This document shows positions 1,591 through 24,337 of a DNA stretch of 29,094 nt, piece by piece. A model generated the notes under the pieces. The model was not told where the DNA came from and ran no database searches. It saw only the letters and a list, made by a program, of their open reading frames with translations. Source of the stretch: a virus (Duplodnaviria; Heunggongvirae; Uroviricota; Caudoviricetes); IMG/VR virus record IMGVR_UViG_2778261543_000004, positions 1-29,094 of that record; one strand, 5' to 3'. The position numbers were made by a program, and so were the translations under genes. Each line of letters opens with the position of its first letter. The first letter of the stretch is position 1.

Positions 1591-1740
1591 TTCATTCATA
1601 GTGCAGGGATTAAAATCATTCCCACTCAATTATTTACGGCATATATAACCAATTGACTGGTAACAAATTTATAAGTCAAATTTTTCACCGTACCGTTTTA
1701 TATACCGTCACCGGAAATCAGTACCATGGAAAATGCCATG

Positions 1741-2223
1741 TCACCGGGTCAGTGAATCGTACTGCTTTTCACAGACTCGTCCGGCTTCGGCGGCCCGGTC
1801 AGCGTACTCTGCCAGTTGTCGGTTTCGCTCGAGAGATTTGCTGAGCACGTCGGCAAGCAAAACTCCGGTGTCTGCGGCTGACGTCCCAGCGCCGACAGTG
1901 GCGTTATACTGCCTGAGCTGCTCACGGATGGCAACGAGCTGTTGCTGCAACCTGCCAGCACGAGCGGCAGCATCAAGAGCATCATTACGCGCCTGGTCGA
2001 TCCTCTGCTGCGCTTCACGTTCATTGGTCGCTTTCTCCTGTTCGTCATGCTGACGAGCTTTCTCATCTTCGGCTTTGCGGTCTGCCTTTGCCTGCGCATA
2101 CCCGGCGTCGTACTGTCGATCGCCGTGAGCATTCCAGGCAATCCTGCAGCCGATCACCAGAGCAGCAAGCATCATCACGATAAACAACTGTTTCCAGTAC
2201 GCTTTAACGAATGCCCGGATCAT
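1741..2223 (-). CDS. Phage i-spanin (Rz-like lysis protein)
   Basis: N-terminal transmembrane helix then long Q/R/A/E-rich coiled coil; start overlaps the endolysin stop (ATGA); last gene of the lysis cassette. Confidence 0.75.
   Translation of the reverse strand: MIRAFVKAYWKQLFIVMMLAALVIGCRIAWNAHGDRQYDAGYAQAKADRKAEDEKARQHDEQEKATNEREAQQRIDQARNDALDAAARAGRLQQQLVAIREQLRQYNATVGAGTSAADTGVLLADVLSKSLERNRQLAEYADRAAEAGRVCEKQYDSLTR
1749..1985 (-). CDS. Putative o-spanin (Rz1-like lipoprotein) embedded in the Rz frame
   Basis: Alternative frame inside Rz beginning MMLLMLPLVLAGC (lipobox LAGC), with a Pro/Ser-rich mature part; embedded layout as in lambda Rz/Rz1. Confidence 0.45.
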   Translation of the reverse strand: MMLLMLPLVLAGCSNSSLPSVSSSGSITPLSALGRQPQTPEFCLPTCSANLSSETDNWQSTLTGPPKPDESVKSSTIH

Positions 2224-2849
2224 ACCGCCAGCACCTTACTGGCAGTGATGTACCGCGCGCACCGGTCGTCGATGCCGTTCTGCCCACCATTGATGATCTG
2301 CGTGACGCGCACCAGGTCGCCGGTGTATTTCATGCAGCCTTTTGTTGCGAAGAACCACGCCGCGCTGCGGGCCGCGTATTCGTCCTGCGCCAGCAGCTCC
2401 GGCTGGCTAACCAGCTCAATTTTGAGCCCGTTGCCGCAGTCCCGGTAGTTGTTCAGGCCGGTGATCTGGATAAGTCCGCGCCCGCGGTAGAACCAGCCGT
2501 CGGTCGGCCCGTTGTTCCCCATGCGCTTGCCGTACACCAGATTGGCGATCGCACGCTGGCGCTCCAGCGGTAACGATGGCTCACCAGCACGGCGGCCCAG
2601 CTCGTTGGCCTGACCCTGAGTGAGACGCCCGGCGCGGACGAATCCTACCAGCCCGTTCACGCTGTAGTTGAAGTTCTCCTGCAGCCGTGTGAATCCGCCT
2701 GACTCATGCCCCACCTGCGCGATAAACATCGCCTGATGCAGAGGATTCTCGATGCCAAACTCTTTCATGGCTGCGGTGATATGCAGATACCAGCGCGTGG
2801 CCAGTACCTCACTGATACCAGCTGCACGCTGGAATTGTTTAATGTCCAT
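2220..2849 (-). CDS. Endolysin, glycoside hydrolase family 19 (chitinase-like lysozyme)
   Basis: GH19-type motifs (FIAQVGHESGGF, GRGLIQITG, NYRDCG); lies between holin and spanin; overlaps the holin 3' end. Confidence 0.85.
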   Translation of the reverse strand: MDIKQFQRAAGISEVLATRWYLHITAAMKEFGIENPLHQAMFIAQVGHESGGFTRLQENFNYSVNGLVGFVRAGRLTQGQANELGRRAGEPSLPLERQRAIANLVYGKRMGNNGPTDGWFYRGRGLIQITGLNNYRDCGNGLKIELVSQPELLAQDEYAARSAAWFFATKGCMKYTGDLVRVTQIINGGQNGIDDRCARYITASKVLAV

Positions 2850-3132
2850 GCTGGGACCTCGTTATCTTGAAGATTTGAACCACGTTCCCTTTTGTCTTGA
2901 TGAGAGCAGCCAGGAACACAGCTTTGATGATGACTTCTGACCAGTCGGCGCTGACGTAGTACCCGTAGAACGTTCGGATAGGTACGCTGGCAGCCACGAC
3001 GATCAGCAGGTAGGCGAGCCATCCACCCCACCAGCGATGGCGTGACCCGTCACGGCGGAATAGCAGGACTCGGATTGCAATGCCGCCGCAGATAGCGGCG
3101 TTCAGGATGAGAAGCAGTTCAGGACTGGTCAT
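2839..3132 (-). CDS. Holin
   Basis: 97-aa protein with hydrophobic helices and a charged C-terminus, immediately upstream of and overlapping the endolysin. Confidence 0.7.
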   Translation of the reverse strand: MTSPELLLILNAAICGGIAIRVLLFRRDGSRHRWWGGWLAYLLIVVAASVPIRTFYGYYVSADWSEVIIKAVFLAALIKTKGNVVQIFKITRSQHGH

Positions 3133-3523
3133 CGTCTTTTCTCCCCGGGATCAGGTCGCGCGGATTTTCAGAACGGTGATACAGCCAGATGCCAATGCGG
3201 ACAGCGACGATAGACGATACGAATGCCCCGGCAGAAAACACAATGCCCTTCTCGAAAGAGTCAGGTGTGATTTTCGGGATCCAGCTCGCTATTCCGATAA
3301 GCAATGTCGCTGTGGCTTTATAGAAGAGAACTCCGCATAGGTAGCTGAGGAACGCCAGCAGTAACCGACGCTTAATCGGATACTCTACTGCCGAGGTAAC
3401 AAAAATTACCGCACCAGCAAGCGAACCTAACGCTACCTCGGGAGGGACACCGACGACAACTGAAGCCAGCGCACCCAGGCTAAGCCCCTGATTCAGCGAT
3501 TCCGTGGTTAACGTGTGCGACAT
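3119..3523 (-). CDS. Phage membrane protein, putative second holin or antiholin
   Basis: About 134 aa from the ATG at 3523 (MSHTLTTES...), 3-4 predicted transmembrane helices; first gene of the lysis operon, overlapping the holin start. Confidence 0.6.
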   Translation of the reverse strand: MSHTLTTESLNQGLSLGALASVVVGVPPEVALGSLAGAVIFVTSAVEYPIKRRLLLAFLSYLCGVLFYKATATLLIGIASWIPKITPDSFEKGIVFSAGAFVSSIVAVRIGIWLYHRSENPRDLIPGRKDDDQS

Positions 3524-3585
3524 AGTGACCACCGTTTAATGTGCATAAAGAACCCCCTTAGTTGGTGAGTTCATCATACACAATA

Positions 3586-3641
3586 AACCATATGTGGTTT
3601 AATTATGATCGGAATGCTCTTAACGAAATTACCTTACGGGT
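3586..3641 (-). promoter_or_regulatory. Late-operon upstream element, copy C (ATTACCTTACGGGT plus AACCATATGTGGTT)
   Basis: Third copy of the bipartite motif also found upstream of the tailspike and portal operons; lies between the acetyltransferase terminator and the lysis operon start. Confidence 0.45.
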
Positions 3642-3666
3642 ATTAAAAAGCCCACCTGAGTGGGCT
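3641..3666 (-). terminator. Rho-independent terminator after the acetyltransferase moron
   Basis: Hairpin AGCCCAC-ctga-GTGGGCT followed on the - strand by TTTTTAATA. Confidence 0.7.
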
Positions 3667-3670
3667 TCTA

Positions 3671-4659
3671 TTACTTGGTTAAGCTTGCTGGCAGGTGGCT
3701 TTTAATTATGTTTTTACCGATGAACACTGACCCTTCATCAGTAGGGTGACCGTAATCCATGGACATAAGCGTAAAGCCACTATCTACCCTTGACCTACAC
3801 TTCAGTTCTGTACCTTCACGTGCACACAAGCCATCAAGTATGTCGACAAAATCATATCCTTCATTGTCTTTTGATATCGTCTTCATTTTGTTATTTGTCG
3901 CGACAATCTGTTTATCCAAAAATCTGTTATCAATGTAAATATCATTGGGATTATAGTTTTTCGCAACAATAAGCGGCAGGCTCCCTTTCCACTGAGGAAC
4001 AGGACCAAGGACTATAACTTTTTTAACACCCAGTGCGTGTATTTTTTCAGCAATATCTTGCCAGTCTGTTTCTTCATGCTGGAATCTCTGAGCTAATACC
4101 ACAACATCAGGTTTAACAATATTTATATCTTCAATGGCTTTTTCATTGGATAGATTACATCCAATTGTGGCACTTATAACTCCAGGGAATTTATGGAGAC
4201 TCGGTTTACAACTTGAAGCAGCAAGTTGATAGAATGGAACGCCATCTTTTAGAAGTGATCTTATCCCTAAAGAAAGTGCTCCCGCGTGAGAGTCTCCCCA
4301 TAAGAAGACACCTCCCCTTTTATCAGTATCGACACATGATTTATCGATATGATCCAGTTTTTCACTGCTGTTACATTTATCCCACATCCCATTATTATCA
4401 AACCGATATCCATCGTAATGCACCACAGTTTCATTACCGGTAGTTTTTGTGATACTTCGCATATCAGTGTTAGCGCCATTAGAAATATATATACCAACAG
4501 CTAAAGCTAATGATGCAAAGTACAGAAACTCCTTTTTAACGCCGCCTCTACTTTTGAAAACACTTTCTATATATTTAAATGACAACATACCCATCGCCAC
4601 TGACGCAACAATTCCAATGAGCGTTGTTAATATAGAAACACCACCATATGTATTATATA
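3671..4659 (-). CDS. O-antigen acetyltransferase, C-terminal SGNH-hydrolase fragment (frameshifted)
   Basis: Last AT3 helix (GGVSILTTLIGIVASVAMGMLSF) followed by an SGNH/GDSL-like domain (GVFLWGDSHAGALS...); upstream of ~4660 this frame is not meaningful, so it is the downstream half of a split gene. Confidence 0.7.
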
Positions 4660-5528
4660 TATAGATAGATCGGCCAGTGCCACAAATAAATTGAATATGA
4701 ATACAACCCAATCTTTTGCGCAAAAGATGAATCTAAGATAATGTTATCAGAACACGACCACAATATGATCATCGTGCCGATGATAGGCAGCAGCGCATTG
4801 TAGCTAGGCCAGTACGATTCCTCGCTAAAAATAAAGCAGGATACTAATATGGTAGCAATCCCGATATATGGGAAAGGTTTTCGTTTAAATATTGATGTCG
4901 GGAAAAGATAAACCACGCCGCCAGCAATCATCTCCCATGCCCTTGTTGGAAGCAAGAAATATGATGAGCTAACTAAAATCCTAGATGCATAAATGCTAAG
5001 TGCTAAACTTAATAGGCCTGCAATCAGAATTAATATCCTAGATACCTTTAAACTGAAAGCCTTTCTGATAATATAAATGGCTAAAGGATATATAATATAG
5101 AATTGCCATTCTACAGATAGAGACCAAGTATGAAGTAACCACTTCTCTTCTGCACCAGGAGCAAAGTAGCTTGACTCCTTCCAATAGACGATATTTGAAA
5201 CAAATAGAAGGCTTGACGCAGCGTGCTTCGCCAATGTCTTAAATTCAGGAGTGTACATGTTGTACCATCCGTATACCATTACGCAAATTAGCATAACGGC
5301 AAGCGCAGGCACTATCCTTCTGGCTCGTGCTTTATAAAAGCCCCACAGAGAAAATTTATTTCCTTCTAATCCGCCAAATATTATTGACGTCATCAAAAAA
5401 CCAGAAATTACAAAGAATACATCTACGCCAACAAATCCACTCGGGACCCATCCTCTGTTGAAGTGGAACAGGACTACAGCAAGAACTGCTATAGCCCTGA
5501 CTCCATTGATATCCTTCCTGAAGTCCAT
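4653..5528 (-). CDS. O-antigen acetyltransferase, N-terminal acyltransferase-3 membrane fragment (frameshifted)
   Basis: Typical AT3 N-terminus (RAIAVLAVVLFHF...GFVGVDVFFVISGFLMT) and multiple transmembrane helices, ending ...YLWHWPIYLYI at a stop inside a (TA)5 tract. Confidence 0.75.
   Translation of the reverse strand: MDFRKDINGVRAIAVLAVVLFHFNRGWVPSGFVGVDVFFVISGFLMTSIIFGGLEGNKFSLWGFYKARARRIVPALAVMLICVMVYGWYNMYTPEFKTLAKHAASSLLFVSNIVYWKESSYFAPGAEEKWLLHTWSLSVEWQFYIIYPLAIYIIRKAFSLKVSRILILIAGLLSLALSIYASRILVSSSYFLLPTRAWEMIAGGVVYLFPTSIFKRKPFPYIGIATILVSCFIFSEESYWPSYNALLPIIGTMIILWSCSDNIILDSSFAQKIGLYSYSIYLWHWPIYLYI
4655..4663. repeat. (TA)n dinucleotide tract at the acetyltransferase frameshift
   Basis: ATATATATA at the junction of the two acetyltransferase reading frames; adding one TA unit fuses them into a single ~619-aa ORF. 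Confidence 0.8.
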
Positions 5529-5625
5529 GCCTCAATGCCTCACACAGTTACGATACGAGGCATGTTATACATTTAGACTGTGGATTTCATCATTTAAGCA
5601 AAAGTTAGTTTGAATCGTTCAAGTA

Positions 5626-7920
5626 TTACGCTATCACTTTAAGTGTGAGTTTGTACATCAGGCTTACACCGGTTGCTGATATCGGCGTCTGCAGTACCAC
5701 CGCTGTGTTGCTTGCTGATACCACTGCTAATGGAGCGCTTGATCCAGCTGAAGATTGCGAGCTTGCCACGACATGCGCAGTGTAGTCATCGATTCTAAAT
5801 CCTGTTGGGGCGTCGAGTTGCACCCTGCCATCGCCAGCATTGATAACTTTTGTTTGCCATGCGTTATGCCTGCTATATCCGTTGCGTATGTAGTCGTACG
5901 TCTCATTGGCCTTCATGTATCTTTCCATATACATGCAACCAATAGATTCAATGCACTGATAGTTTGCTGGAGCCAGCTTAAGGTTGGTTGATGCTCCGCC
6001 AAGTCTTGAAGCACCCCCAAGATGCATTCCGCATTGCTCGAACGTGATCTTCGAGGATGGGTCTACAGTAACTACGTATGGTGCAAAGGTGCTATCTGTA
6101 TACTTTGAAAGAACAGGCGCATAGTGTTTTACCGATATGTTACTAAACTGACCGACGTATATTAAGCTTCGATTTGAAGATGCAATAGCTGTCTCATCGG
6201 CAGCACCCATAAGAGTTCTCATCACCTTAGCAACGCCTTGAGTTCCAAGCCCCTTGATTAATACACCATCAGTGGAGTCTTGGAGATAATGAAGCTTAAA
6301 TTCTGCTTCAACGCTACCGATGCAATTAATATGGGCACCTTCCCACGCTTCTATCCCCATATCAAATGTTACGTTACTGCACGTATCAAGCGTAATGCCC
6401 ATTGCTGTTTCATTTACACTGTCGTAGTTGCCGTACTGCGCAAGCGCTCCTTCAAACCAACCGTGGAATTTTGCATAATTACAGTTCTTCAGATAGATGG
6501 GGAATGGGGTATGATCCGCCTGAAGTTCAATATGATGTGATGTAGTTGAGCCTCCAACCGTGTCCTTTTCCGGTGATAAGCTTACGGCGTCAAAGTAAAC
6601 GCCCTTGTGGCAAGAATCAAATCTAATAATCCCTTGCGTTCCCCACGCGCTGTATCCAAAACATGCATATTCAGCACCAAACATGCTCACATCCAAATTT
6701 GCTTTTATAGCCATATTTAGGTGTAAAGCAATGGTGCCAAGTCCTTTACTTGCAACATGCCTTGCGGTGTCCCACTTAAAGGTTAATCCCTTAATGGTCA
6801 AATCCCTAAATGCAGAGTCAGAGCTACCAGCTTCATCAGAATCCATAACTCTGCCAATGCATAGCTGCCCGAATTGATAGCTCGAAGAATTGCTAGGGAC
6901 AGATCTAATAAACCCAGTGGTAAAGTCAAAACCTCCTAGAGGCGGTGCGATCCAGGCTGATTTTTGTCCGAATTCTAAATAATCAGTACTCCCAAAGTGA
7001 TACATCTTATTTTTTTTAACATTGATTTGGCACTTCCCTCTGGCATAGTTCTCAGCCGCCTGGCAAGCTGCCCAATCGATGGTCTGAGTTAATGATGTTA
7101 CGAACGGGTATACGGCCTGGGCAGCGGACAGTGTAAGGTATCGCTCAGATAAAGGATGGGCGGTACCGTCCCCGATCGCCCCAAACTGCTCGGGAGTAAC
7201 GTAGATCAACAGTTGAGAAAGGTTTCCCTGAGGCTGCACACCAATAAGCGTCGGCCCGGTTGGCTTTGCCAGTTCAACAAAAACATCTGTTGCCGATCCA
7301 GATGGTGGCATCGTTACATATGGATTGCCTGCGCTGTCGAACGCAATAATTTTGTTCGCCCTGGTCGCAGCATTCGGTAACGAAGGAATTGGTTCTGGAG
7401 TTCTGAGAGTGCGGCTAAGGTTAGAGCTGGCAACGCCATCAACATAATTTTTGGTCGCCGCGTCCTGAGGGTCCCGAGGGTCGCGCACATTCCTGATGTA
7501 GTTGTTTAGGGCATCGTACCAGTTGGCGATACTCGACGGCTTACGCAGCGCCAGGCGGAACATGCTGCCAACCTGCTGTATCAGCATCGTCAGTTTATCG
7601 AATGCGTCTTCATGCACCTCAGCGAAGAACTTACCCTGGTTGCGCAGATCGGTATCCTGCGTAACCGGTAGCTCTCTTGATATAGAGATCTGATAACCGT
7701 TGGCCAATGCCTTCGACAGTATTATATTACCGCCGCTATAGCCTCCCGCACCAGTGACTATGTAATCAGTATCAAGAATCAGCTCTGTGATGTTCTCGTT
7801 CAGGTCAACAACCTGCACTACTAAATCAGATTTCTGGAAAATCCTGAAGGTATAAGGGAATGTCGTTGTAACACCGTTACCGGTGTATTCGTTGTGGTCA
7901 ACTTCGGTTGAGACCGTCAT
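5626..7920 (-). CDS. Tailspike / receptor-binding protein with beta-helix depolymerase-like domain
   Basis: 764 aa; conserved podovirus tail-fibre N-terminal anchor (MTVSTEVDHNEYTGNGVTTTFPYTF...); central pectate-lyase-like motif (FGAIGDGTAHPLS...); position after the internal virion proteins as T7 gp17 / epsilon15 tailspike. Confidence 0.8.
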   Translation of the reverse strand: MTVSTEVDHNEYTGNGVTTTFPYTFRIFQKSDLVVQVVDLNENITELILDTDYIVTGAGGYSGGNIILSKALANGYQISISRELPVTQDTDLRNQGKFFAEVHEDAFDKLTMLIQQVGSMFRLALRKPSSIANWYDALNNYIRNVRDPRDPQDAATKNYVDGVASSNLSRTLRTPEPIPSLPNAATRANKIIAFDSAGNPYVTMPPSGSATDVFVELAKPTGPTLIGVQPQGNLSQLLIYVTPEQFGAIGDGTAHPLSERYLTLSAAQAVYPFVTSLTQTIDWAACQAAENYARGKCQINVKKNKMYHFGSTDYLEFGQKSAWIAPPLGGFDFTTGFIRSVPSNSSSYQFGQLCIGRVMDSDEAGSSDSAFRDLTIKGLTFKWDTARHVASKGLGTIALHLNMAIKANLDVSMFGAEYACFGYSAWGTQGIIRFDSCHKGVYFDAVSLSPEKDTVGGSTTSHHIELQADHTPFPIYLKNCNYAKFHGWFEGALAQYGNYDSVNETAMGITLDTCSNVTFDMGIEAWEGAHINCIGSVEAEFKLHYLQDSTDGVLIKGLGTQGVAKVMRTLMGAADETAIASSNRSLIYVGQFSNISVKHYAPVLSKYTDSTFAPYVVTVDPSSKITFEQCGMHLGGASRLGGASTNLKLAPANYQCIESIGCMYMERYMKANETYDYIRNGYSRHNAWQTKVINAGDGRVQLDAPTGFRIDDYTAHVVASSQSSAGSSAPLAVVSASNTAVVLQTPISATGVSLMYKLTLKVIA

Positions 7921-7972
7921 GTTAAATCTCCAGATAGTCGCAGCACCCGTTGCGCCGCATATCCGGTTATTC

Positions 7973-8037
7973 TATTACCTGAAAAACCATATATGGATAG
8001 ACAACCCATAAATACGAACAGATATTACCTTTCAGGT
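7973..8037 (-). promoter_or_regulatory. Late-operon upstream element, copy A (TATTACCT, CCATATATGG, TATTACCTTTCAGGT)
   Basis: 15-bp exact repeat TATTACCTTTCAGGT (8023-8037) shared with 24633-24647, plus perfect palindrome CCATATATGG (7987-7996); upstream of the tailspike start. Confidence 0.5.
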
Positions 8038-8076
8038 GATTCGCAAAACGTGCTGGATAGCAAATAAATTATTTGA

Positions 8077-8096
8077 TACTGTATATTTATACAGTT
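8077..8096 (+). promoter_or_regulatory. LexA operator (SOS box)
   Basis: TACTGTATATTTATACAGTT matches the LexA consensus TACTGTATATATATACAGTA (CTGT-N8-ACAG core); TTGATA -35-like hexamer overlaps its 5' edge; 20 bp upstream of the 8116 ATG. Confidence 0.8.
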
Positions 8097-8115
8097 ATTG
8101 CATGGAGAAGATAAG

Positions 8116-8373
8116 ATGCAGCAGTATCACTATCCACTGGAAGACGGATTTACCGAAAGGATTCACACGCCGGGAGGCGTCAGATCACTGGTGGAGGGAT
8201 CGCACTTGATGAAATTACTCCGGGAGCTCGATAAGGATGGATTTAATGTCGATGGCCCACTTGCCGAACTGACTGCACTGATTAACTACGTCACCAGCTC
8301 ACAGATGTCTATGCGGGATCTGCAAACACATCTCGACTATTGTGCCGAACAATTACGAAAACAAACCACATAA
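8116..8373 (+). CDS. SOS-regulated small hypothetical protein (moron in late region)
   Basis: 85-aa ORF from ATG 8116 with GGAG RBS 8 nt upstream, directly behind the LexA box; opposite strand to the flanking structural genes. No recognisable family; not DinI-like by eye. Confidence 0.65.
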   Translation: MQQYHYPLEDGFTERIHTPGGVRSLVEGSHLMKLLRELDKDGFNVDGPLAELTALINYVTSSQMSMRDLQTHLDYCAEQLRKQTT

Positions 8374-8379
8374 AGAAAA

Positions 8380-8408
8380 GGCCGCTAGAGCGGCCTGTGA
8401 CATGTCAC
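8380..8408. terminator. Hairpin plus GTGACATGTCAC palindrome between convergent genes
   Basis: GGCCGC-taga-GCGGCC hairpin (8380-8395) adjacent to GTGACATGTCAC (8397-8408); T-tract lies on the - strand (TTTTCTTTAT), so it best terminates the - strand small ORF. Confidence 0.65.
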
Positions 8409-8415
8409 GCTCACG

Positions 8416-8556
8416 TTATGACAAGCCTATGTACCCTGCTACACCAGATAATATCAAAATAACTGCAACAGCAAATTCACCATCACCAATGATACATTTA
8501 CGGTTCATAACGCCAAGTGCAATAAGCGCAAACACAACAAGAATAAAAGCAATCAT
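8416..8556 (-). CDS. Small two-helix membrane peptide (46 aa)
   Basis: ATG at 8556 with AAGGA RBS; translation MIAFILVVFALIALGVMNRKCIIGDGEFAVAVILILSGVAGYIGLS verified by hand; followed by palindrome and terminator. Below the 60-aa ORF-track cutoff. Confidence 0.45.
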   Translation of the reverse strand: MIAFILVVFALIALGVMNRKCIIGDGEFAVAVILILSGVAGYIGLS

Positions 8557-8628
8557 TTCTCATCCTTATTGCGGAGTGACATCCTGCGGTCGCCACCAGT
8601 ATGTCTGGTTAAACTCTTTCTTCGAACG

Positions 8629-11040
8629 TTACTCCATTTTACGCAAATAACCTGGTGAAAAATACTCCTGCATCTGGTTAAATATCATATGATCGAGAGC
8701 CGCCTTCAAGTACCAGAGATTCGCACCTGGCATCAGCCCCTTCCCCAGCTTAACCATATCACCACCAGTCTGCTCATTCTTCCCTTCCACAGCATTTAAC
8801 GGTATGCCCTGAGCTATCTTAACGATATCATCAACAAGGCCTGCCACCGGACCAAGCATCGACGCCAGCGCGCCGCTTCCGTACCTAGTGTGATCTGACA
8901 ATAAAAAGTCACCGTAAAGGCCAAGACCACCACCTTTCAGTAGAGCACCAAGCCAAAATTTAGCAGCATCTTCTCCTGTCATCTCGCGAGGATTACGACC
9001 AGACGCAAGGTCGTTAAGTTGCTGCGACAAAGCGCCAAGAATGGTCGTACTGGCAATAAACGTCGCAATATATGCCGCACGCCCACCAGCAGACGGCATA
9101 CCCATAGCGCGTGACCAGTGACGCATAACCACCGAGATAGGGAACGATTTAAACAGGAAAACACTTCTCGTTAATTCACCCTTCCATGTTCCACGCTGAA
9201 TACCAGAACCGGTTATCAATTGCTCACGCGCGCCAGGTGTAATAACAGCCATATCAACTTCTTCAGTTACGGCACCGAGCAGTTTACGCATTGCCTCAAA
9301 TTTCACACGTTCAGGCTCACCAAGATGTTTAACTGCTGAATCAGGGATACGCATAATGCTTTCCGGTGTCAGCATCGTATTATTGCCGTTCCCCCAGTCC
9401 TCCTGTTGTGCCAGCTTCCATACGCTCCAGTCTGTTTCAGTAATCCCTTTGCTTTTCAGGATACGAAAATCAGAGTCATCGAGGCTACGAAGGTCTGGTG
9501 TCCGTGACACTACTTCTCCCAGGCTTCCCATCATTGTTACGCCATAGGCGCGCTTGTGCGCATCTGACCATGCTGTAAGTCCACTGGCACGCATTACCGC
9601 CGTTGCCGCCCAACGAGACACAGACGGCCCCATATTATCCATCGCCCAGCGGTTAACGCTGCCAAGTAGAGATTCCATCGCCAGACCAGCGCGGCGCGCC
9701 CGCGCAAGCTCAGTACGATTCGTTGGGTCCATAGCTTCAAGCTGGTTGCGAAATAACTGGTTCATTGGAAGGTTGGTAACCTTCGCAGACAGATACATGG
9801 TTCCAAGATCAGAGAACGATGACAGCAACGCGGATCCGAGTCTGCTGGCAACCAGCCAGTTGCGGATATTGTCAGACCATCGCGCGATGTGCGGATTCGC
9901 TACAGGCTGTGTCTTTCCGGAAATAAAGTTGTACAGATTCTCTGTGTTGTTCGCCAGCCGCTCGACTTTACCGGTTTTACTCGGGTTAGCTGTTGCCGTT
10001 TCTGCCTTAACCTGATCAAGAAGGGAGCGGAAAACATGATCGGGGTTTGGACCATATGTTTCCACCAGAGCAATATCTTTACTGATACCTTCCAGGTGAC
10101 CGACCATGATTTCCCATAGAGAGCGATCGCCATAAAGTTGTTGATATTGGAGATAGGAATCTGCATCTTTGAAATGTATCTGTCGTGATGCATTACCACG
10201 GTTAGCACGTGCGCCGGAAATTCGCATTCCTGTATCAGTAAGCTTATTCAGCCCACCAGTAGCGATCGTGTTATAAGCCTCTCCAAGAAATGCAGACAAC
10301 TCGGCATCGTTCATCAGTTGTCCATCGGCTCGGGTATAATATTTGCGATCCAGCTTACCTATAACATCGCTAACCCACTTATCCTTTGATACCGCCCCAA
10401 CCTTTTCCATAGAATGATGTTGAGGGATCCCCCAGTTTTCGAGATAGCCAATGTCCCCACCAGCATCATTAAACCGGCGGCGCAGCAGCTCTGTAACTTC
10501 TCTCCACGCCTTAGCACCTTTTCTTGCTTTAGCATTGCCAGTATTTTGCCCCCGCATTTCATATACCAGGTCACGTACGCCCGCTTCATCTTCAAACAGA
10601 CCAAAAAAGCGAGGATCAACTGCTTCGAATGCCTCCTGCAATTGACTCAATGCATAATCACGGGTAGCTTTTGTTCTGGATTCAACAGAGAGGAAATTAG
10701 ATTTACCGTCTGCATTAAAAGCTATAGTACGGTTAAGAGCGCCAAGTTTCCCATCAGCCCCTTGATAGCTATTGATAAATTTATCCAATCTCTGACGCGC
10801 GGCTATAGTGAGAGCCACACGACGTTTCTTTAATGTCGCTTCTCGCTGTAATTCTTCAGATGCCAATTGTGCTGCTCGATATAGCCGCTCTGATTCGGAA
10901 AGTTGTCGCCACGACATCGGGTCATCACGAGCAATGGAGCGCATATTTCGATAAATGCGGTCTTCAATGTTCTGTATTTCTCGCGCCGTTAACGTGCGCT
11001 GCGCCGCCTGCTGGACCGCTTGTATACATTCCTGTCTCAT
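8629..11040 (-). CDS. Internal virion / ejection protein (T7 gp16-like position)
   Basis: 803 aa; GAGAGG RBS; last large gene of the internal-protein block before the tailspike. Confidence 0.6.
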   Translation of the reverse strand: MRQECIQAVQQAAQRTLTAREIQNIEDRIYRNMRSIARDDPMSWRQLSESERLYRAAQLASEELQREATLKKRRVALTIAARQRLDKFINSYQGADGKLGALNRTIAFNADGKSNFLSVESRTKATRDYALSQLQEAFEAVDPRFFGLFEDEAGVRDLVYEMRGQNTGNAKARKGAKAWREVTELLRRRFNDAGGDIGYLENWGIPQHHSMEKVGAVSKDKWVSDVIGKLDRKYYTRADGQLMNDAELSAFLGEAYNTIATGGLNKLTDTGMRISGARANRGNASRQIHFKDADSYLQYQQLYGDRSLWEIMVGHLEGISKDIALVETYGPNPDHVFRSLLDQVKAETATANPSKTGKVERLANNTENLYNFISGKTQPVANPHIARWSDNIRNWLVASRLGSALLSSFSDLGTMYLSAKVTNLPMNQLFRNQLEAMDPTNRTELARARRAGLAMESLLGSVNRWAMDNMGPSVSRWAATAVMRASGLTAWSDAHKRAYGVTMMGSLGEVVSRTPDLRSLDDSDFRILKSKGITETDWSVWKLAQQEDWGNGNNTMLTPESIMRIPDSAVKHLGEPERVKFEAMRKLLGAVTEEVDMAVITPGAREQLITGSGIQRGTWKGELTRSVFLFKSFPISVVMRHWSRAMGMPSAGGRAAYIATFIASTTILGALSQQLNDLASGRNPREMTGEDAAKFWLGALLKGGGLGLYGDFLLSDHTRYGSGALASMLGPVAGLVDDIVKIAQGIPLNAVEGKNEQTGGDMVKLGKGLMPGANLWYLKAALDHMIFNQMQEYFSPGYLRKME

Positions 11041-11045
11041 TTAAT

Positions 11046-12848
11046 TTAACCTCTCAAGAAACACGCCACAGCGACATCAAACAGGCTGGAATCCTGTATT
11101 GCCTGCTCACTTTCCCTGTTCGCTTCGTCCAGTACTTCACGCGCACTGCGCGATTGTGGATTACCATCATCATCCAGCACGGTGATTATCATGTCAGGTG
11201 ATTCAAGCAGCGAGTCTTCAGCTATGCGCAGATCAATATCTCCTGCCTGATCTGACATCATTTTTTGTTCTGCCTGTTGCAATATTTTATCAGGCTCAAA
11301 AGGAGCTACTTCGTCTGGCGTCCTGACCTCTGCTGTTTTATAGAATGAAACAGCCTGAGCATTAAGTTCACTTTCTGCCTGCTGTCTCCGAGCCAGTTCT
11401 GCTCGAGCTTCAAAAAACTGACCGCCAGGCTCGTGCGGTGCCAACGCGTTACGGGAAAATTCCAGGCGTTCTTGTGCCTGCCGGATTCGTTGATCAATAT
11501 CGCGAAGTCTGGCCTGTTTATCTGATCGAGCACGAGACAAAGCTTTACCGCTACCGGTTGGCTCTTCTGCAAGAATTTGTGCGCGCTGTTCAGTGAGATT
11601 TTCAATAATTCGTTGGCTATTAGCGATTTCAGACTGGTAAACCTGTCTATCGCCACGCGACAAAAGCTGCGCGGCCTGTTCTTCAAGCAACCGATTTTCT
11701 ATAGCGCGCGCCGTTACTCCATTATCTACAGATGACAGAGCCTCATTAACTGCCTGAGACAGCAGACTCTTGCGCCCAGGAATTTCACTGAAAGATGCAG
11801 ACTCAACAATGCTGGCAACGTCTACAGGTCTCCCCTGGCTAACATCAGACATGGCTTTTCGCAGAGCCTGAATGTGCGAATTACGCGAAAGCACGTTGAT
11901 CGGAACGCCGGGAGCAATATCAATTTCAGCATGATGAGCGGCATTCGCCGCCAGTGCAGCATCAATATCAACTGGTGAAAAATTTGGTGCGCTTGTAGAC
12001 TCGCCGCGAGAGTTAATAAATCTGCCGACACCACCAAACGCCACCCCAAGAACAGCATCAATAGCAATTGCCTGTCGATCCAACACATCATACTGGTTAG
12101 CCATTTCGCTATAGCCACCATCACGAAGTGTTTTTGCAGTAAGCCCACGCTGTGCCATACCGAACGCAATATTTGTACCTGCGGCATAGGCAATATCTGG
12201 CGTTGCACGTACTGCTGTTGCTGCGGCGCGTCGCACTGAACTCTCACCCGTCCGCGCAAGCTGAGCCGCCACACCTTCCGCCAGCGCACCACCAGCACGT
12301 AACCCGAGGCTCATAGGGATCAGCGTTCCGGCACCAGCAGTAATGCCCTGCACTAATCCCGCTTCCTGCGCCGTCCTGAAATCAACACCCTGTGCTGTCA
12401 GCCGTTCAAACTCAGAAAAACCCTGTAGCGAAGTTACCGCCGCTGCACCTCCGACAGGACCACCGAGCGTTGTACCGACAACAGCCTGCCCGCCCATATC
12501 GAACAACCCATAAAGAACCTGCCCAGCGGTTCCAGTTGTCGCGGCATCAGGCGTCAGCCGCTTAACCTGCTGCTCTGCTAGTTTTCTCTGCTCGGCAATG
12601 TATGAAACTGAAGTATCATTGAGCGAGGTGTTTTCGTTAACAAACTGAGCAATCGGGGATACGATTTTATCCATCCCTGCCCATAGCAACTGATCTGGCT
12701 TTGCCACCAGCCCGGAGTACAAACCAGACAATGCCGCTCCTACAGCATTGTCGAAAAAACCAACATCGCTGTTAAAGCCCGCTGGATTTGATGCTGCTTC
12801 GTCAAGTTGCTGATTCTGGTTTACTGGATTAAGGCCGAAGTAACTCAT
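11046..12848 (-). CDS. Internal virion protein (Gly/Ala-rich)
   Basis: 600 aa, Gly/Ala-rich N-terminal half and coiled-coil C-terminal half; start overlaps the upstream stop (ATGA). Confidence 0.6.
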   Translation of the reverse strand: MSYFGLNPVNQNQQLDEAASNPAGFNSDVGFFDNAVGAALSGLYSGLVAKPDQLLWAGMDKIVSPIAQFVNENTSLNDTSVSYIAEQRKLAEQQVKRLTPDAATTGTAGQVLYGLFDMGGQAVVGTTLGGPVGGAAAVTSLQGFSEFERLTAQGVDFRTAQEAGLVQGITAGAGTLIPMSLGLRAGGALAEGVAAQLARTGESSVRRAAATAVRATPDIAYAAGTNIAFGMAQRGLTAKTLRDGGYSEMANQYDVLDRQAIAIDAVLGVAFGGVGRFINSRGESTSAPNFSPVDIDAALAANAAHHAEIDIAPGVPINVLSRNSHIQALRKAMSDVSQGRPVDVASIVESASFSEIPGRKSLLSQAVNEALSSVDNGVTARAIENRLLEEQAAQLLSRGDRQVYQSEIANSQRIIENLTEQRAQILAEEPTGSGKALSRARSDKQARLRDIDQRIRQAQERLEFSRNALAPHEPGGQFFEARAELARRQQAESELNAQAVSFYKTAEVRTPDEVAPFEPDKILQQAEQKMMSDQAGDIDLRIAEDSLLESPDMIITVLDDDGNPQSRSAREVLDEANRESEQAIQDSSLFDVAVACFLRG

Positions 12849-15358
12849 TGCGGAATATCTCCGGAGAATCTCTGACGCTTCTGTGTCAGATCAAGAACAA
12901 CAGGAGAACCATCATCTTTCAGCAGATAACCAGTACCAAGTTTCACCAGGTACTGACTATCGCCGTAACTTTGCAAACCATACTGACCAGGCGGTGTTTT
13001 TATCCCGGTGCCGACAACTTGTTCATTCCAAGCCTGATTAACCTGCTTATCGAATTGCTCTGCAGACATTCCCCACGGCAAAAGGACATTCCCCATTCCG
13101 TTATAGTCATGCACGCCACCTGTAGCTACGTTAACAGCCTGTTTCCAGATATCAGTGTCAATTTCGCCTGATATCACGCCTTTTTTCGCCATCACACCAG
13201 CGTAATAGTCCTTTGCGATCTCGTATGCCATTGATGCCCCCTGAGCATCACCAGCAAATGCATCCTTCACCATGTCAGAAAACTCAAGGCGAAGATCAGC
13301 ATCTTTAGGCATCGGAATACCTTTCGCATCATCAGTACCTTTACGAGCCGCCGCGCCAGCAAGAATTGTCTGCGCAGCGGTTTCAGGAGACACGGAAACA
13401 TCAGGATTAAACCAGTTTTTTTCTGCCAAAATACCACCAGGCTTGTCCATCAGTATCCCGGCAATGGCAGCAGATGGAGCGTTGGCACTGATCTGCTGTA
13501 GTGCTGACATATACACCTGCCCACCACCAGTGCTCTGCCTGATGGTATCGAGATATGCTGCCTGTTGGGAAACTGGAGCATCACGAAAGAAAACACCGAT
13601 CTGATTGGCCTCGTCTTTGGAAAAGAACGTCAGTGGAGTGCCATATGACTTAGCAAGGTCACTTACCTGAGCGGCACGCAAGGCAACGCTCTGTCCAAAG
13701 TTATCCTTATTGCTCATGTCGATAGGCTTTGTCTGTCCGGAGGCAAGAGAGAACTGCACAGGATCCGACTGCCGCTGCTTTATCACCTGATTTGCAGCCG
13801 AAACAACGTTGTCATAAAGAGCTGCGCGTGCCGCATACCCCTCCCCTGTTTCACCAGTATCCGGGCGTAATTGCTCAACATATGCTGTAATGCTGCTTGT
13901 CGGCATGTTGCGGAAAGAGCCTATATACTGTCCGGCGATTTGCGTATTTCTGAACTCGGTATATCGCAGGTTTCCTTCTCTTACTCCATAAGCTGCAATA
14001 AAATCAGCCTCACCAGGTGGGTTAGGAAATTCAACGCCACGCATATACGCAGCTGTCGCATCGCGAACCTGGCTGTCAATCATCGTTTTATATTCAGCCT
14101 GCTGCTGCCGACGCAGTTGATCCGCCTGTCGCATAAAACTTGCCTGCGCCTCAGGAGATGCCGCATCGAATGCTGCATTACCGGTATAGCGTTTGGTGTT
14201 GGTTGGAATTGTTGATAAACCAAGTGCTGCACTGACACCAGCAGTTAACTGCTGATCACTGTATGGCTGGCTACCGTTCTCATGATGGATAATGGCTGCA
14301 CAAAGCGCCTTCAGGGTATCAGGATTAGATGCATCGAGAGGCTCATCAGCAGAAACGCCAAGTTGTTCGCACACTGCTTTGATATACGACATAGTGTCAT
14401 TTTTATCAGTAGGCGGTGCCCAGCGATTAATTATCTCGCTGACGGTATCAATACCCTGCCTCTGATACGACATCAGGTTCCGCCCTAATGCACGAATCCC
14501 GTGTTCAGGTGTTTCGAATTTAGCAAATCGACCATCATCACCGGTCTGGCCTACCCACGGATTATTTTTGCTGTATTCGAGATTTCCTGGGTTATTGTTG
14601 CGTATGCCGCGGGCACGCTCGGAAGAGTCACTATCTGCTACAGCACGGCGAGCTCCAGCAGCAGTATCACTTAACTCGCCATTACTTTGGATGAATGCGG
14701 TCGCATTGTTTGCCGACCACTGGGACAATGCAGCATCAGCAACCTTCTCTTTAAACTCGATTTTCTTGGCCTGGATTTGCTCGTTGCTCCAGCCATGTGC
14801 AATGCCGTAATCCTCAATTTGCTGGAAAGTTTGCTTGTTAGCCAATACGTATGCGGCGTTGTCGCCATACAATGCTGCGGCATTTTTACCATTGTTCAGC
14901 AGTGTCGCCTGAAACTGGCCTTCTTCGTAGGCATTAATTTGCCCTATCTCGTGTCGCCCGGCCTGCGTAGTGAACTGAATGCGCTGCTGCTGCGCCTGCC
15001 GCATGAAAGCATTACGAGCCTGTTCATCCGGCAGCGACATAGCCAGTTGTTCGACCTGAGCATCAAACTGCTGCGTATACTCCTGACCTTTTCCAATAGC
15101 ATTTTTCCCTTTCAGGTTAAGCAAACCTGTTTCAGGGTTATTCAGCAGATCGCTGCTTATCTGACTGAGGTTAAGAGATGCCTCCTGAGCCAGAGCGATA
15201 TTGGCACGCTGTTTTGCCTGACCAAAAACATCAATTGCTTCTGTCCCTGCCCGAACAAAAGCATCACCAATACCTGGCTGAGAAAACGTCTGCAAGCCTG
15301 CTGACTGAACTCCACGGCTCTCAACCTGACGTCCGGATACTGTTGGTACGACTGGCAT
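12845..15358 (-). CDS. Internal virion protein with putative peptidoglycan-hydrolase-like domain
   Basis: Likely start at ATG 15358 (MPVVPTV...) with GGAGGA RBS and TAATG overlap with the upstream gene; internal conserved-looking block RGIRNNNPGNLEYS...FETPEHGIRA; T7 gp15/16-like position. Confidence 0.6.
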   Translation of the reverse strand: MPVVPTVSGRQVESRGVQSAGLQTFSQPGIGDAFVRAGTEAIDVFGQAKQRANIALAQEASLNLSQISSDLLNNPETGLLNLKGKNAIGKGQEYTQQFDAQVEQLAMSLPDEQARNAFMRQAQQQRIQFTTQAGRHEIGQINAYEEGQFQATLLNNGKNAAALYGDNAAYVLANKQTFQQIEDYGIAHGWSNEQIQAKKIEFKEKVADAALSQWSANNATAFIQSNGELSDTAAGARRAVADSDSSERARGIRNNNPGNLEYSKNNPWVGQTGDDGRFAKFETPEHGIRALGRNLMSYQRQGIDTVSEIINRWAPPTDKNDTMSYIKAVCEQLGVSADEPLDASNPDTLKALCAAIIHHENGSQPYSDQQLTAGVSAALGLSTIPTNTKRYTGNAAFDAASPEAQASFMRQADQLRRQQQAEYKTMIDSQVRDATAAYMRGVEFPNPPGEADFIAAYGVREGNLRYTEFRNTQIAGQYIGSFRNMPTSSITAYVEQLRPDTGETGEGYAARAALYDNVVSAANQVIKQRQSDPVQFSLASGQTKPIDMSNKDNFGQSVALRAAQVSDLAKSYGTPLTFFSKDEANQIGVFFRDAPVSQQAAYLDTIRQSTGGGQVYMSALQQISANAPSAAIAGILMDKPGGILAEKNWFNPDVSVSPETAAQTILAGAAARKGTDDAKGIPMPKDADLRLEFSDMVKDAFAGDAQGASMAYEIAKDYYAGVMAKKGVISGEIDTDIWKQAVNVATGGVHDYNGMGNVLLPWGMSAEQFDKQVNQAWNEQVVGTGIKTPPGQYGLQSYGDSQYLVKLGTGYLLKDDGSPVVLDLTQKRQRFSGDIPQ

Positions 15359-15903
15359 TATAATCCTCCGGGTAATCTGGTTCCTGCTGCTGCCCCGATT
15401 GGCGCAGGGGTGCTTTGAGTAAACGGACTCCACGTCCCACCAAACATCTGGTACGCACCGTATGCCTTCAGAGGCGCAGTGAGCAATGTTGTTGCTGCTC
15501 CCACATTCCCCTGTTTACGGGCTGAACTGGCTTCTGCTTTATAGTTGGCAGCCTGAACCTGATAACCGTAAGCCTCGCGTTGCGCGTTATTCACCGTCGT
15601 CAGCGAATCAAGAGCGCCAAACTGGGCAGTGTCGCCAAATATATCCAGCGCGTTACCTGTAGATAAATCAGCGCCGGTAGCCCCCATTGTCGCCGCCTGT
15701 GTACCAAGCCGCTGTCGGGTCTCTCTGCGCCGTTGCTCAGCTTCAGCGTTACCTCTGTTTATTGCATCATTTGCCTGAGCTGTGGCTATATCTGCGTTCG
15801 CTTCTGCAACCTTCGAGGCATACTTTCCCTGTTGGTACTGGGTGTATGCCTGAATGCCACTCATGGCGAGCATTGCGCCACCAGCAATAACCGGATCGCA
15901 CAT
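15358..15903 (-). CDS. Internal virion protein (T7 gp14-like position)
   Basis: 181 aa, Ala/Gln-rich; overlapping start and stop with neighbours. Confidence 0.55.
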   Translation of the reverse strand: MCDPVIAGGAMLAMSGIQAYTQYQQGKYASKVAEANADIATAQANDAINRGNAEAEQRRRETRQRLGTQAATMGATGADLSTGNALDIFGDTAQFGALDSLTTVNNAQREAYGYQVQAANYKAEASSARKQGNVGAATTLLTAPLKAYGAYQMFGGTWSPFTQSTPAPIGAAAGTRLPGGL

Positions 15904-19772: not shown

Positions 19773-19816
19773 TCCTGCAATAAAGGGGCCGAAGCCCCTT
19801 GTCTGATTCGCGAGGC

Positions 19817-20152: not shown

Positions 20153-20162
20153 CGAAATCACC

Positions 20163-20600: not shown

Positions 20601-20651
20601 CTTCTTTCTCCATTAGTGGGTCTGTTACGACCCACAGGTTAATAACAGGCG

Positions 20652-21638: not shown

Positions 21639-21652
21639 TGTCATTTCCTCTC

Positions 21653-24323: not shown

Positions 24324-24337
24324 TTCAATGACTCCGG

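What the first reader, a model, noticed from the sequence alone, without database searches (positions are those of the whole stretch)
4640..4680. O-antigen acetyltransferase split exactly at a (TA)5 tract; one extra TA restores a ~619-aa ORF
The AT3 domain frame (4653-5528) ends ...LWHWPIYLYI-stop inside ATATATATA, and the SGNH domain frame resumes in the next frame over the same bases. Inserting one TA unit, or deleting one base, gives ...WPIYLYIYNTYGGVSILT... and a full-length OafA/Oac-type protein. This may be a genuine pseudogene, a sequencing or assembly slip in a low-complexity tract, or slipped-strand ON/OFF switching of serotype conversion.
Basis: seen in the sequence. Interest (0 to 1): 0.7.

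Follow-up and report, generated by a model that had tools for sequence, protein, structure and literature searches.

The report
Prophage O-antigen acetyltransferase broken by TA slippage
A phage-borne gene that probably acetylates the E. coli surface sugar coat has lost one TA unit from a short TA repeat and is now out of frame; this is an ordinary recent knockout, with no sign of a regular on/off switch.

Summary
On the minus strand a 291-codon ORF (4653-5528) ends at a TAA that overlaps a (TA)5 tract (4654-4663). The rest of the gene continues in the +1 frame to 3671. Adding one TA gives a 619-aa AT3-SGNH acyltransferase whose 1860 nt are identical to the intact gene of E. coli GPEC1405, which has (TA)6.

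- **Setting:** the window is contig NLNW01000060.1 of E. coli GCA_002229875.1. The gene lies between the tailspike and the lysis genes of a phiV10/epsilon15-like prophage.
- **Rarity of the broken allele:** intact alleles carrying the tract occur on about 49 contigs. The (TA)5 product occurs only in this assembly. Predicted (TA)4, 7 and 8 products are absent from 15 billion proteins.
- **Age:** the closest prophages differ by 1-2 SNPs plus the TA unit, so the change is recent.
- **The tract itself:** it is no longer than codon usage predicts (6% of synonymous shuffles) and is absent from sister lineages.
- **Position of the break:** it lies inside the AT3 domain, before the last AT3 helix and a conserved Glu.

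Best reading: a recent slippage null allele, like the 7-nt-repeat loss in Salmonella oafA. An evolved phase switch is not supported, and a sequencing error cannot be excluded without reads. Interest is low.

The parts
4654..4663 (-). (TA)5 dinucleotide tract. Intact relatives have (TA)6 here, encoding L-Y-I-Y (CTA TAT ATA TAT A..).
   Evidence: The alignment to GPEC1405 shows a single 2-nt gap inside the tract.
4653..4655 (-). Premature TAA stop created by the loss of one TA unit. It overlaps the end of the tract.
   Evidence: by direct reading.
4656..5528 (-). 5' gene fragment: residues 1-291 of the acyltransferase. This is the AT3 domain without its last transmembrane helix. RefSeq annotates it as WP_089674638.1.
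3671..4652 (-). 3' gene fragment in the +1 frame: residues 292-619 of the intact protein. It holds the last AT3 helix (298-316), the conserved Glu322, an anchor helix (335-353), the linker and the SGNH domain (395-608). The first internal ATGs at 4594 and 4588 have no Shine-Dalgarno sequence.
3648..3667 (.). G+C-rich hairpin (AAGCCCAC-CTGA-GTGGGCTT) a few bases after the gene's stop codon, followed by TTTTT on the minus strand. It is the likely terminator of the acetyltransferase transcription unit.
   Evidence: One search flagged the hairpin on the + strand. The T-run on the minus strand comes from direct reading.
5529..5625 (-). Intergenic region between the tailspike and the acetyltransferase. 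A promoter is expected here but none was identified.
   Evidence: One search found no minus-strand sigma-70 match.
5626..7920 (-). Tailspike (764 aa). Its receptor-binding C-terminal part co-varies with the acetyltransferase as one cassette.
   Evidence: L004, L056 and L057 match window 3645-7194 as one block at 86.7%; the N-terminal ~250 aa are shared with epsilon15-like phages, and the C-terminal part is at most 37-39% identical to known tailspikes.

Best explanation
The window carries a recently inactivated allele of a prophage lysogenic-conversion gene.

**What the intact gene is.** It encodes a 619-aa membrane AT3 acyltransferase fused to a periplasmic SGNH domain, the OafA/OafB type. It sits next to the tailspike of a phiV10/epsilon15-like podovirus prophage. 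By inference it O-acetylates the host O-antigen that this tailspike recognises.

**What happened.** Strand slippage at the gene's longest simple repeat, (TA)6, removed one unit. The reading frame now ends at a TAA inside the tract after residue 291.

**Consequence.** The truncated product lacks the last AT3 transmembrane helix and the conserved Glu that follows it. It also lacks the anchor helix and the whole SGNH catalytic domain. The downstream part has no ribosome-binding site. The enzyme is therefore most likely off.

**Reversibility.** Regaining one TA would restore the gene, so the change is reversible in principle. It nonetheless behaves as a sporadic hotspot mutation, not as a tuned switch.

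**Shown versus inferred.** Shown: the sequence facts, the domain content, the natural intact (TA)6 allele, the rarity of the OFF allele and its recency. Inferred: the O-antigen as substrate, the loss of activity, and that the deletion is biological rather than technical.
For: - **Repair and natural counterpart.** The restored gene equals the GPEC1405 gene at 1860/1860 nt. GPEC1405 has (TA)6 and an annotated 619-aa protein.
- **Domains.** Pfam finds Acyl_transf_3 at 5-315 and SGNH at 395-608. The C-terminal part matches the OafB SGNH crystal structure 6SE1, with the GDS and D-x-G-H blocks aligned.
- **Essential residues.** The residues essential in OafA are H25, D39, R69, R72, S112, E325, S412, D587 and H590 (PMC7448272). 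I matched them by motif and near-equal numbering, not by aligning OafA directly. Their counterparts here, H22, D36, R68, R71, S111, E322, S414, D592 and H595, are invariant in alignment A2.
- **What the break removes.** E322 and the strongest hydrophobic helix of the C-terminal part (298-316) lie after the break.
- **The intact allele is the norm.** The exact intact protein is indexed in 67 blocks of the collection. All 10 loci read carry an in-frame tract.
- **The broken allele is unique.** The 291-aa product occurs only in the window's own assembly.
- **Recency.** The prophage portion of the window (about 1700-8528) differs from L047 and L052 by only 1-2 SNPs plus the TA unit.
- **Prophage type and gene position.** The structural genes are 97.8% identical to phiV10. 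The gene sits between the tailspike and the holin/endolysin genes, as in Salmonella Uetakevirus SPN1S and SPN9TCW.
- **Precedents.** S. Typhimurium oafA is split by loss of one 7-nt repeat unit, with loss of O:5 (PMC9426603). The SPN1S acetylase is split by A7 versus A8.
Against: - No reads are available, so a consensus or assembly error at the tract cannot be excluded.
- Acetyltransferase activity and its substrate were not tested for any member of this 619-aa family. The nearest characterised relatives, BTP1 GtrC/OafB and SPC32H Oac, are only about 31% identical.
- Stand-alone AT3 enzymes such as Shigella Oac do exist (PMC9558356), so residual activity of a truncated AT3 is not formally excluded.
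- Two other draft assemblies have contig ends on the downstream side of the tract. One of them may also break upstream: the 281-aa partial P0132 probably comes from the same assembly as L002, judging by accession series, but I could not look it up. These breaks could mean mixed TA counts in cultures, i.e. more instability than the allele counts suggest.
Confidence: 0.72

Rival explanations
1. Sequencing or assembly artefact: the isolate really has (TA)6, and the 2-nt deletion arose in consensus calling.
For: Only one assembly carries the allele. The rest of the gene is identical to intact alleles. Two other draft assemblies fail to assemble across this tract, which shows the spot is awkward for assemblers.
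Against: A 2-bp deletion in a 12-bp dinucleotide tract is not a typical short-read consensus error (own knowledge). A 29-kb contig from a fragmented draft suggests short-read data (inference). The sources listed for the 291-aa product include Logan, an independent re-assembly of public reads, although the identity of that sample is not shown. The only other indel against the closest relatives (window 1609-1610) sits beside a SNP outside any repeat, so the contig shows no general indel noise.
Confidence: 0.13
2. Evolved contingency locus: the (TA)n tract is kept as a reversible ON/OFF switch of O-antigen acetylation. This would give mixed populations that differ in phage adsorption and antigenicity.
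For: - The repeat lies inside the ORF of a surface-modifying gene, and one unit change toggles the frame.
- (TA)6 is present in three lineages: the P0001 type, the 94% L004/L057 type and the 65% L005 type.
- Contig breaks lie next to the tract in two assemblies.
- There are precedents for phase-variable acetyltransferases. H. influenzae oafA switches through tetranucleotide repeats and OafB through epigenetic control (PMC9558356).
Against: - There is one OFF allele against about 49 intact tract-bearing contigs.
- No (TA)4, 7 or 8 products, and no (TA)5 products on three other backgrounds, exist among 15 billion proteins.
- The tract is expected in 6% of synonymous shuffles.
- It is absent from the P0002 lineage in the same prophage position (CTG TAC ATC TTT) and from the 72% relatives (ATT), and it is shortened by a synonymous CTC in L050.
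- Six dinucleotide units is short compared with known contingency repeats (own knowledge).
Confidence: 0.08
3. The gene is still partly expressed. Either a -2 ribosomal slip produces full-length wild-type protein, or the two fragments work as separate polypeptides. In the slip, P-site tRNA-Ile moves from AUA to the identical AUA two bases upstream while the UAA waits in the A site.
For: Direct reading of C UAU AUA UAU AA shows that a -2 shift re-pairs perfectly and yields exactly ...YLYIYNTYGG.... AT3-only and separate SGNH arrangements exist in nature (PMC9558356).
Against: Every relative encodes a single ORF, so the frameshifted layout is not conserved. No stimulatory element was looked for or seen. 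The break lies inside the AT3 domain, before an invariant Glu whose counterpart in OafA is needed for more than 95% of activity. There is no Shine-Dalgarno sequence before the internal ATGs.
Confidence: 0.05

Closest known systems
Salmonella Typhimurium oafA O:5-negative alleles (loss of one unit of the 7-nt tandem repeat ATTTTAT; PMC9426603)
   Same: It is an AT3-SGNH O-antigen acetyltransferase. Loss of one unit of a short A+T-rich tandem repeat inside the ORF shifts the frame and splits the gene into two ORFs. Other alleles of the same gene are inactivated by different routes: nonsense mutations and IS4 there, and a probable IS insertion in the PBO strains here.
   Different: The repeat unit is 7 nt rather than 2 nt. 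That gene is chromosomal, not prophage-borne. There the deletion is frequent (53 isolates) and linked to a measured serological change. Here there is one isolate and no phenotype.
Haemophilus influenzae oafA, phase-variable through tetranucleotide repeats (Fox et al. 2005, as cited in PMC9558356)
   Same: An AT3-family O-acetyltransferase of a surface glycolipid is switched by changes in repeat number within the ORF.
   Different: That case has long, conserved tetranucleotide arrays, documented high-frequency switching and ON/OFF mixtures among isolates. None of these was found here.
Salmonella Uetakevirus SPN1S versus SPN9TCW O-antigen acetylase
   Same: It is the same phage genus and the same genome position, between the tailspike and the lysis genes. 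It has the same AT3-SGNH architecture. One genome has the gene split by a simple-repeat indel, A7 versus A8.
   Different: The protein is only about 31% identical. The indel is in a homopolymer in the SGNH part. The gene is convergent with the tailspike and is accompanied by gtrA.
Phage phiV10 O-acetyltransferase (modifies the O157 antigen and blocks phiV10 adsorption; PMC9558356, PMC11854483)
   Same: The prophage backbone is nearly the same, with 97.8% identity over the structural genes. It is a lysogenic-conversion acetyltransferase paired with an O-antigen-specific tailspike.
   Different: The cassette differs. No phage in the collection shares this gene at the DNA level, and the closest protein matches are below 60% identity. 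The review describes the phiV10 enzyme as an oac homologue. The tailspike receptor-binding part here is also different, so the target O-antigen is presumably not O157.
OafB / GtrC of Salmonella phage BTP1 and relatives (SGNH domain structure 6SE1)
   Same: It shares the AT3-SGNH architecture, the conserved catalytic residues and carriage on a phage.
   Different: Identity is about 31%. OafB expression is phase-varied epigenetically from its promoter, not by a repeat in the coding sequence (PMC9558356).

Membership tests
AT3-SGNH fused carbohydrate O-acyltransferases (OafA/OafB type) | N-terminal Acyl_transf_3 (PF01757) membrane domain | tested here: met
   PF01757, E = 7e-34, residues 5-315 of the restored protein.
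AT3-SGNH fused carbohydrate O-acyltransferases (OafA/OafB type) | C-terminal fused SGNH domain (PF19040) with a Ser-Asp-His triad | tested here: met
   PF19040, E = 9e-25, residues 395-608; alignment to the OafB SGNH structure 6SE1 with GDS and D-x-G-H aligned. S414, D592 and H595 are invariant.
AT3-SGNH fused carbohydrate O-acyltransferases (OafA/OafB type) | AT3 residues shown essential in OafA (TMH1 His, periplasmic-loop Asp, RXXR, loop Ser, Glu after TMH10) | tested here: met
   H22, D36, R68/R71, S111 and E322 are invariant in alignment A2. They were matched to OafA H25, D39, R69/R72, S112 and E325 (PMC7448272) by motif and near-equal numbering. OafA itself was not aligned.
AT3-SGNH fused carbohydrate O-acyltransferases (OafA/OafB type) | One continuous reading frame encoding both domains | tested here: not met
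   In this window the frame breaks after residue 291. It is continuous in relatives.
AT3-SGNH fused carbohydrate O-acyltransferases (OafA/OafB type) | Demonstrated O-acetylation of the O-antigen | not testable with these tools
   This needs LPS chemistry or serology. The substrate is inferred from homology and from linkage to the tailspike.
Simple-sequence-repeat contingency (phase-variable) loci | A repeat tract in the ORF whose unit number sets the reading frame | tested here: met
   (TA)5 is out of frame and (TA)6 is in frame.
Simple-sequence-repeat contingency (phase-variable) loci | Frequent repeat-number polymorphism among close relatives, with several alleles in both directions | tested here: not met
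   There is one (TA)5 allele against about 49 intact contigs with the tract. All 10 loci read are in frame. Predicted (TA)4, 7 and 8 products, and (TA)5 products on other backgrounds, are absent.
Simple-sequence-repeat contingency (phase-variable) loci | A tract longer than composition predicts and conserved across orthologues | tested here: not met
   6.2% of synonymous shuffles give (TA)6 at this site. The tract is lost in the P0002, P0003 and P0004 lineages and shortened in L050.
Simple-sequence-repeat contingency (phase-variable) loci | Within-culture heterogeneity and a measurable switching rate | not testable with these tools
   No reads are available. The only hint is the contig breaks next to the tract in two assemblies.
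Programmed ribosomal frameshifting | A two-frame layout conserved among homologues | tested here: not met
   All homologues examined are single ORFs of 612-652 aa.
phiV10/epsilon15-like (Uetakevirus) prophage seroconversion module | Uetakevirus structural genes, with the acyltransferase between the tailspike and the lysis cassette | tested here: met
   97.8% identity to phiV10 over window 8000-28000; the same gene order as in SPN1S and SPN9TCW.

The most novel reading that the evidence does not exclude
The (TA)n tract is a real, reversible slipped-strand switch that turns phage-encoded O-antigen acetylation on and off in E. coli lysogens. The contig breaks next to the tract in two other assemblies would then reflect mixed TA counts in cultures. 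This would be a rare case of repeat-mediated phase variation in E. coli, carried by a temperate phage and affecting that phage's own receptor.
Probability: 0.08. Interest if true: 0.55.

Novelty: new member of a known kind. Interest (0 to 1): 0.22.

Why it matters
The practical value is mainly for annotation and typing.
- The two RefSeq proteins WP_089674638.1 (291 aa) and WP_089674636.1 (305 aa) are halves of one frameshifted gene.
- A strain carrying this allele probably lacks an O-acetyl modification that sister lysogens have. That could change serological reactions and sensitivity to O-antigen-specific phages.

It also adds one more example to a recurring pattern. A+T-rich, horizontally acquired O-antigen acetyltransferase genes are often knocked out at their own short repeats or by IS elements. 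Examples are oafA in Salmonella, the SPN1S acetylase, and the PBO strains here.

It would matter more only if the tract proved to switch at high frequency, and nothing found here suggests that.

Tried and rejected
- **Megablast against 50,697 phage genomes.** The gene gave no hit, so tract comparison had to rely on bacterial assemblies.
- **Pattern scans for the tract with variable TA number.** Metagenome contigs gave 0 hits. Viral contigs gave 1 hit, with (TA)6. One-genome-per-species contigs gave 1 hit, Enterobacter genomosp. O with (TA)6. This was too few to show polymorphism.
- **Distant blastn against 5,426 complete E. coli genomes.** Only GPEC1405 carries the gene.
- **Look-up of the contig holding the 281-aa partial protein P0132.** The upstream side of the contig break is therefore inferred from the protein end only.
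- **Exact look-ups of eight hypothetical slippage products.** None is on record. Caveat: these are exact-sequence look-ups, so alleles with any extra substitution, or with a different called start, would be missed.
- **Rejected: 'split at the domain boundary into two working domains'.** The break is inside the AT3 domain.
- **Rejected: selection for the tract.**
- **Promoter upstream of the gene.** The sigma-70 scan found no minus-strand match, so the promoter remains unidentified.
- **Tailspike search to identify the target O-antigen.** The receptor-binding part has no close known relative, so the serogroup is unknown.
Full report
**1. The observation**

The gene is on the minus strand. The + strand at 4654-4663 reads TATATATATA. 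On the minus strand the sequence is ...CAC TGG CCG ATC TAT CTA TAT ATA TAA, which translates as HWPIYLYI-stop. A 291-codon ORF (4653..5528) therefore ends in a TAA that overlaps the end of a (TA)5 tract.

A second ORF (3671..4723) runs over the same bases in the +1 frame and reads ...SIYIYNTYGGVSILT.... Inserting one TA produces a 619-aa ORF with ...WPIYLYIYNTYGGVSILT.... Deleting the T of the TAA gives a 618-aa ORF (direct reading).

**2. What the gene is**

- The restored protein has Pfam Acyl_transf_3 at residues 5-315 and the AT3-fused SGNH domain at 395-608.
- Its C-terminal part aligns with the crystal structure of the OafB SGNH domain (6SE1), with the GDS and D-x-G-H blocks in register.
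- In an alignment of 13 homologues (A2), H22, D36, R68, R71, S111, E322, S414, D592 and H595 are invariant.
- By motif and near-identical numbering these correspond to OafA H25, D39, R69, R72, S112, E325, S412, D587 and H590. Alanine substitution of each greatly reduces or abolishes O:5 acetylation (PMC7448272). I did not align OafA directly.
- The closest phage-encoded relatives are about 31% identical. They are BTP1 GtrC/OafB, SPC32H Oac and g341c, all annotated as O-antigen acetylases.

**3. Where it sits**

The window is contig NLNW01000060.1 of E. coli assembly GCA_002229875.1. Bases 99-20620 align at 97.95% with a prophage of E. coli GPEC1405 that lies beside yfgG, yfgH and yfgI. The structural genes are 97.8% identical to phage phiV10, so this is an epsilon15-like Uetakevirus.

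The acyltransferase lies between the tailspike (5626..7920) and the holin/endolysin genes. The O-antigen acetylase of Salmonella Uetakevirus SPN1S and SPN9TCW occupies the same slot. A G+C-rich hairpin with a T-run follows the stop codon (3648-3667; and direct reading).

The gene has 38.9% G+C, against 49.4% for the whole window. In relatives the acyltransferase and the receptor-binding part of the tailspike diverge together as one block (86.7% over window 3645-7194). The tailspike N-terminus, in contrast, is shared with other epsilon15-like phages. This linkage suggests that the enzyme modifies the glycan the tailspike binds, as described for phiV10 (PMC9558356). That is an inference, not a result.

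**4. The intact allele exists and is the norm**

- GPEC1405 has (TA)6 and an annotated 619-aa 'acyltransferase family protein'. The window gene with one TA added is identical to it at all 1860 nt.
- This exact protein is indexed in 67 blocks of the assembly collection. All 10 loci read are in frame.
- Nine of those loci have (TA)6. One, L050, has a synonymous CTA-to-CTC change that shortens the tract to an in-frame (TA)5.
- Among cluster members, intact 619-aa proteins carrying the YLYIYN peptide sit on 35 + 7 + 4 + 3 = 49 contigs. The 291-aa truncated product occurs only in the window's own assembly.
- I predicted the products of (TA)4, (TA)7 and (TA)8 on this background. I also predicted (TA)5 and (TA)7 products on the L004 and L005 backgrounds and a (TA)5 product on the P0125 background. 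None of the eight exists among about 15 billion proteins.

**5. The change is recent**

Against its closest relatives, L047 and L052, the prophage part of the window (about 1700-8528, roughly 6.8 kb) differs by one or two SNPs plus the TA unit. The remaining differences lie in the adjacent host DNA. The gene has no second disabling mutation.

**6. The tract is not special**

- (TA)6 is the longest simple repeat in the gene.
- Given the peptide and the gene's own codon usage (ATA 21 of 60 Ile codons, TAT 22 of 32 Tyr codons), it appears at this site in 6.2% of 5000 synonymous shuffles.
- It is present in three related lineages: the P0001 type, the 94% L004/L057 type and the 65% L005 type.
- It is absent from the 94%-identical P0002 lineage in the same prophage slot, which reads CTG TAC ATC TTT.
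- It is also absent from the 72% relatives found in Mu-like and P2-like prophages, which read CTA TAT ATT TAT/TAC.

There is thus no sign of selection to keep a repeat.

**7. Consequence of the break**

Residue 291 lies inside the AT3 domain (Pfam envelope 5-315), just after the invariant WHWP motif. The following lie downstream of the break:
- the strongly hydrophobic helix 298-316;
- the invariant Glu322 (the OafA E325A mutant keeps 4.8% activity);
- the anchor helix 335-353;
- the whole SGNH domain.

The first ATGs of the downstream frame (4594 and 4588) fall within helix 298-316 and have no Shine-Dalgarno sequence. RefSeq annotates the halves as separate proteins, WP_089674638.1 and WP_089674636.1. 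The most likely outcome is loss of activity. This is inferred, not shown.

**8. Rival readings**

- **(a) Technical artefact.** This cannot be excluded without reads. In its favour, the allele is unique to one assembly. Against it, a 2-bp consensus deletion in a 12-bp tract is unusual for short-read data (own knowledge). The contig shows no general indel noise. The product is also listed from Logan, an independent re-assembly of public reads, though the sample identity is not shown.
- **(b) Evolved phase variation.** Points 4 and 6 argue against it. The one hint in its favour concerns two draft assemblies, GCA_022903635.1 and GCA_012494125.1. Their contigs start 27-31 nt downstream of the tract. 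A 281-aa partial protein ends about 30 nt upstream of it. It probably comes from the first of these assemblies, judging by accession series, but I could not look it up. Mixed TA counts would explain such breaks, but so would poor coverage of an A+T-rich stretch.
- **(c) Leaky expression.** A -2 slip of tRNA-Ile from AUA to the identical AUA two bases upstream, with UAA in the A site, would give exactly the wild-type protein (direct reading). No homologue has the two-frame layout, so this could only be incidental.

**9. Comparison with what is known**

- The nearest precedent is S. Typhimurium oafA. Loss of one unit of the 7-nt repeat ATTTTAT shifts the frame, splits the gene into two fragments and abolishes O:5. 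Nonsense and IS4 alleles arise independently in the same gene (PMC9426603).
- The same pattern shows in this family. Proteins from the PBO strains are N-terminal parts of 385-389 aa and C-terminal parts of 238-254 aa. They end and begin in foreign peptides at contig ends, which is consistent with an IS insertion near codon 375.
- In the same phage genus, the SPN1S acetylase is split by A7 versus A8 relative to SPN9TCW.
- True repeat-driven phase variation of an AT3 enzyme is known for H. influenzae oafA (PMC9558356). It involves long, conserved tetranucleotide arrays, unlike the tract here.

**10. Verdict**

This is a real-looking, recent, single-step slippage frameshift that most likely inactivates a prophage O-antigen acetyltransferase. 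It is reversible in principle, but there is no evidence that it works as a switch. It is an ordinary example of a known kind of event. Its main value is for annotation and for predicting serotype and phage sensitivity.

Noticed in passing
L002 1-40 and L003 1-40 (equivalent to window ~4627-4631 downward): Two independent draft assemblies (GCA_022903635.1 and GCA_012494125.1) have contigs that start 27-31 nt downstream of the TA tract. A 281-aa partial protein (P0132) ends about 30 nt upstream of it. Assembly therefore fails next to the tract in both. The cause could be mixed TA counts or poor coverage.
   Followed up: partly
L054 ~4551 (Salmonella phage SPN1S) versus L055 (SPN9TCW): The O-antigen acetylase of SPN1S is annotated as two proteins. 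The only difference from the intact SPN9TCW gene is A7 versus A8 in a homopolymer, a second repeat-indel split of an acetylase in the same phage genus.
   Followed up: yes
Proteins P0124, P0126, P0129 and P0135-P0137 (E. coli PBO... accessions): In another set of strains the gene appears as N-terminal parts of 385-389 aa ending in ...HYDGYR+WICPYISRHLLSL and C-terminal parts beginning SGDSWGQSN+RFDNNG. All lie at contig ends. This looks like an IS insertion near codon 375, i.e. an independent inactivation.
   Followed up: partly
Protein P0122 (7 contigs): This is a mosaic allele. Its N-terminal two-thirds are identical to the P0001 type, and its C-terminal part carries the substitutions of the P0002 type. 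That indicates recombination inside the gene.
   Followed up: no
L058 4001-5857; L060 4001-5857: Homologues at 72% identity sit directly after the baseplate and tail-fibre genes of Mu-like and P2-like prophages, one of them in Pectobacterium. The acetylase family therefore travels next to receptor-binding genes in unrelated phage types.
   Followed up: no
L050 1-650 and 3862-3868: This locus has different DNA upstream of the tailspike region (it matches the window only from its position 648). It also carries a synonymous CTA-to-CTC change that shortens the tract to an in-frame (TA)5.
   Followed up: partly
window 24972-25048 (+): There is a tRNA-Arg (anticodon TCT, reading AGA) inside the prophage, also annotated in the O157 typing phages. 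It may help translate A+T-rich cargo such as the acetylase.
   Followed up: no
window 3600-3666: This 67-nt stretch, which includes the hairpin after the acetylase stop, matches at 98.5% in four E. coli genomes that lack the acetylase gene (H2-H5, no annotated feature). It may mark the cassette boundary in related prophages.
   Followed up: no
window 4486-4493 and 299-308: There are other short TA/AT runs: (TA)4 inside the same gene and (AT)5 in the host DNA near yfgG/yfgH. Neither differs from relatives where they were compared.
   Followed up: partly
window 1609-1612: A 2-nt indel plus an adjacent SNP separates the window from L003, L047 and L052. It lies between yfgI and the prophage Rz-like gene, near the prophage/host junction, and is not in a repeat.
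   Followed up: no
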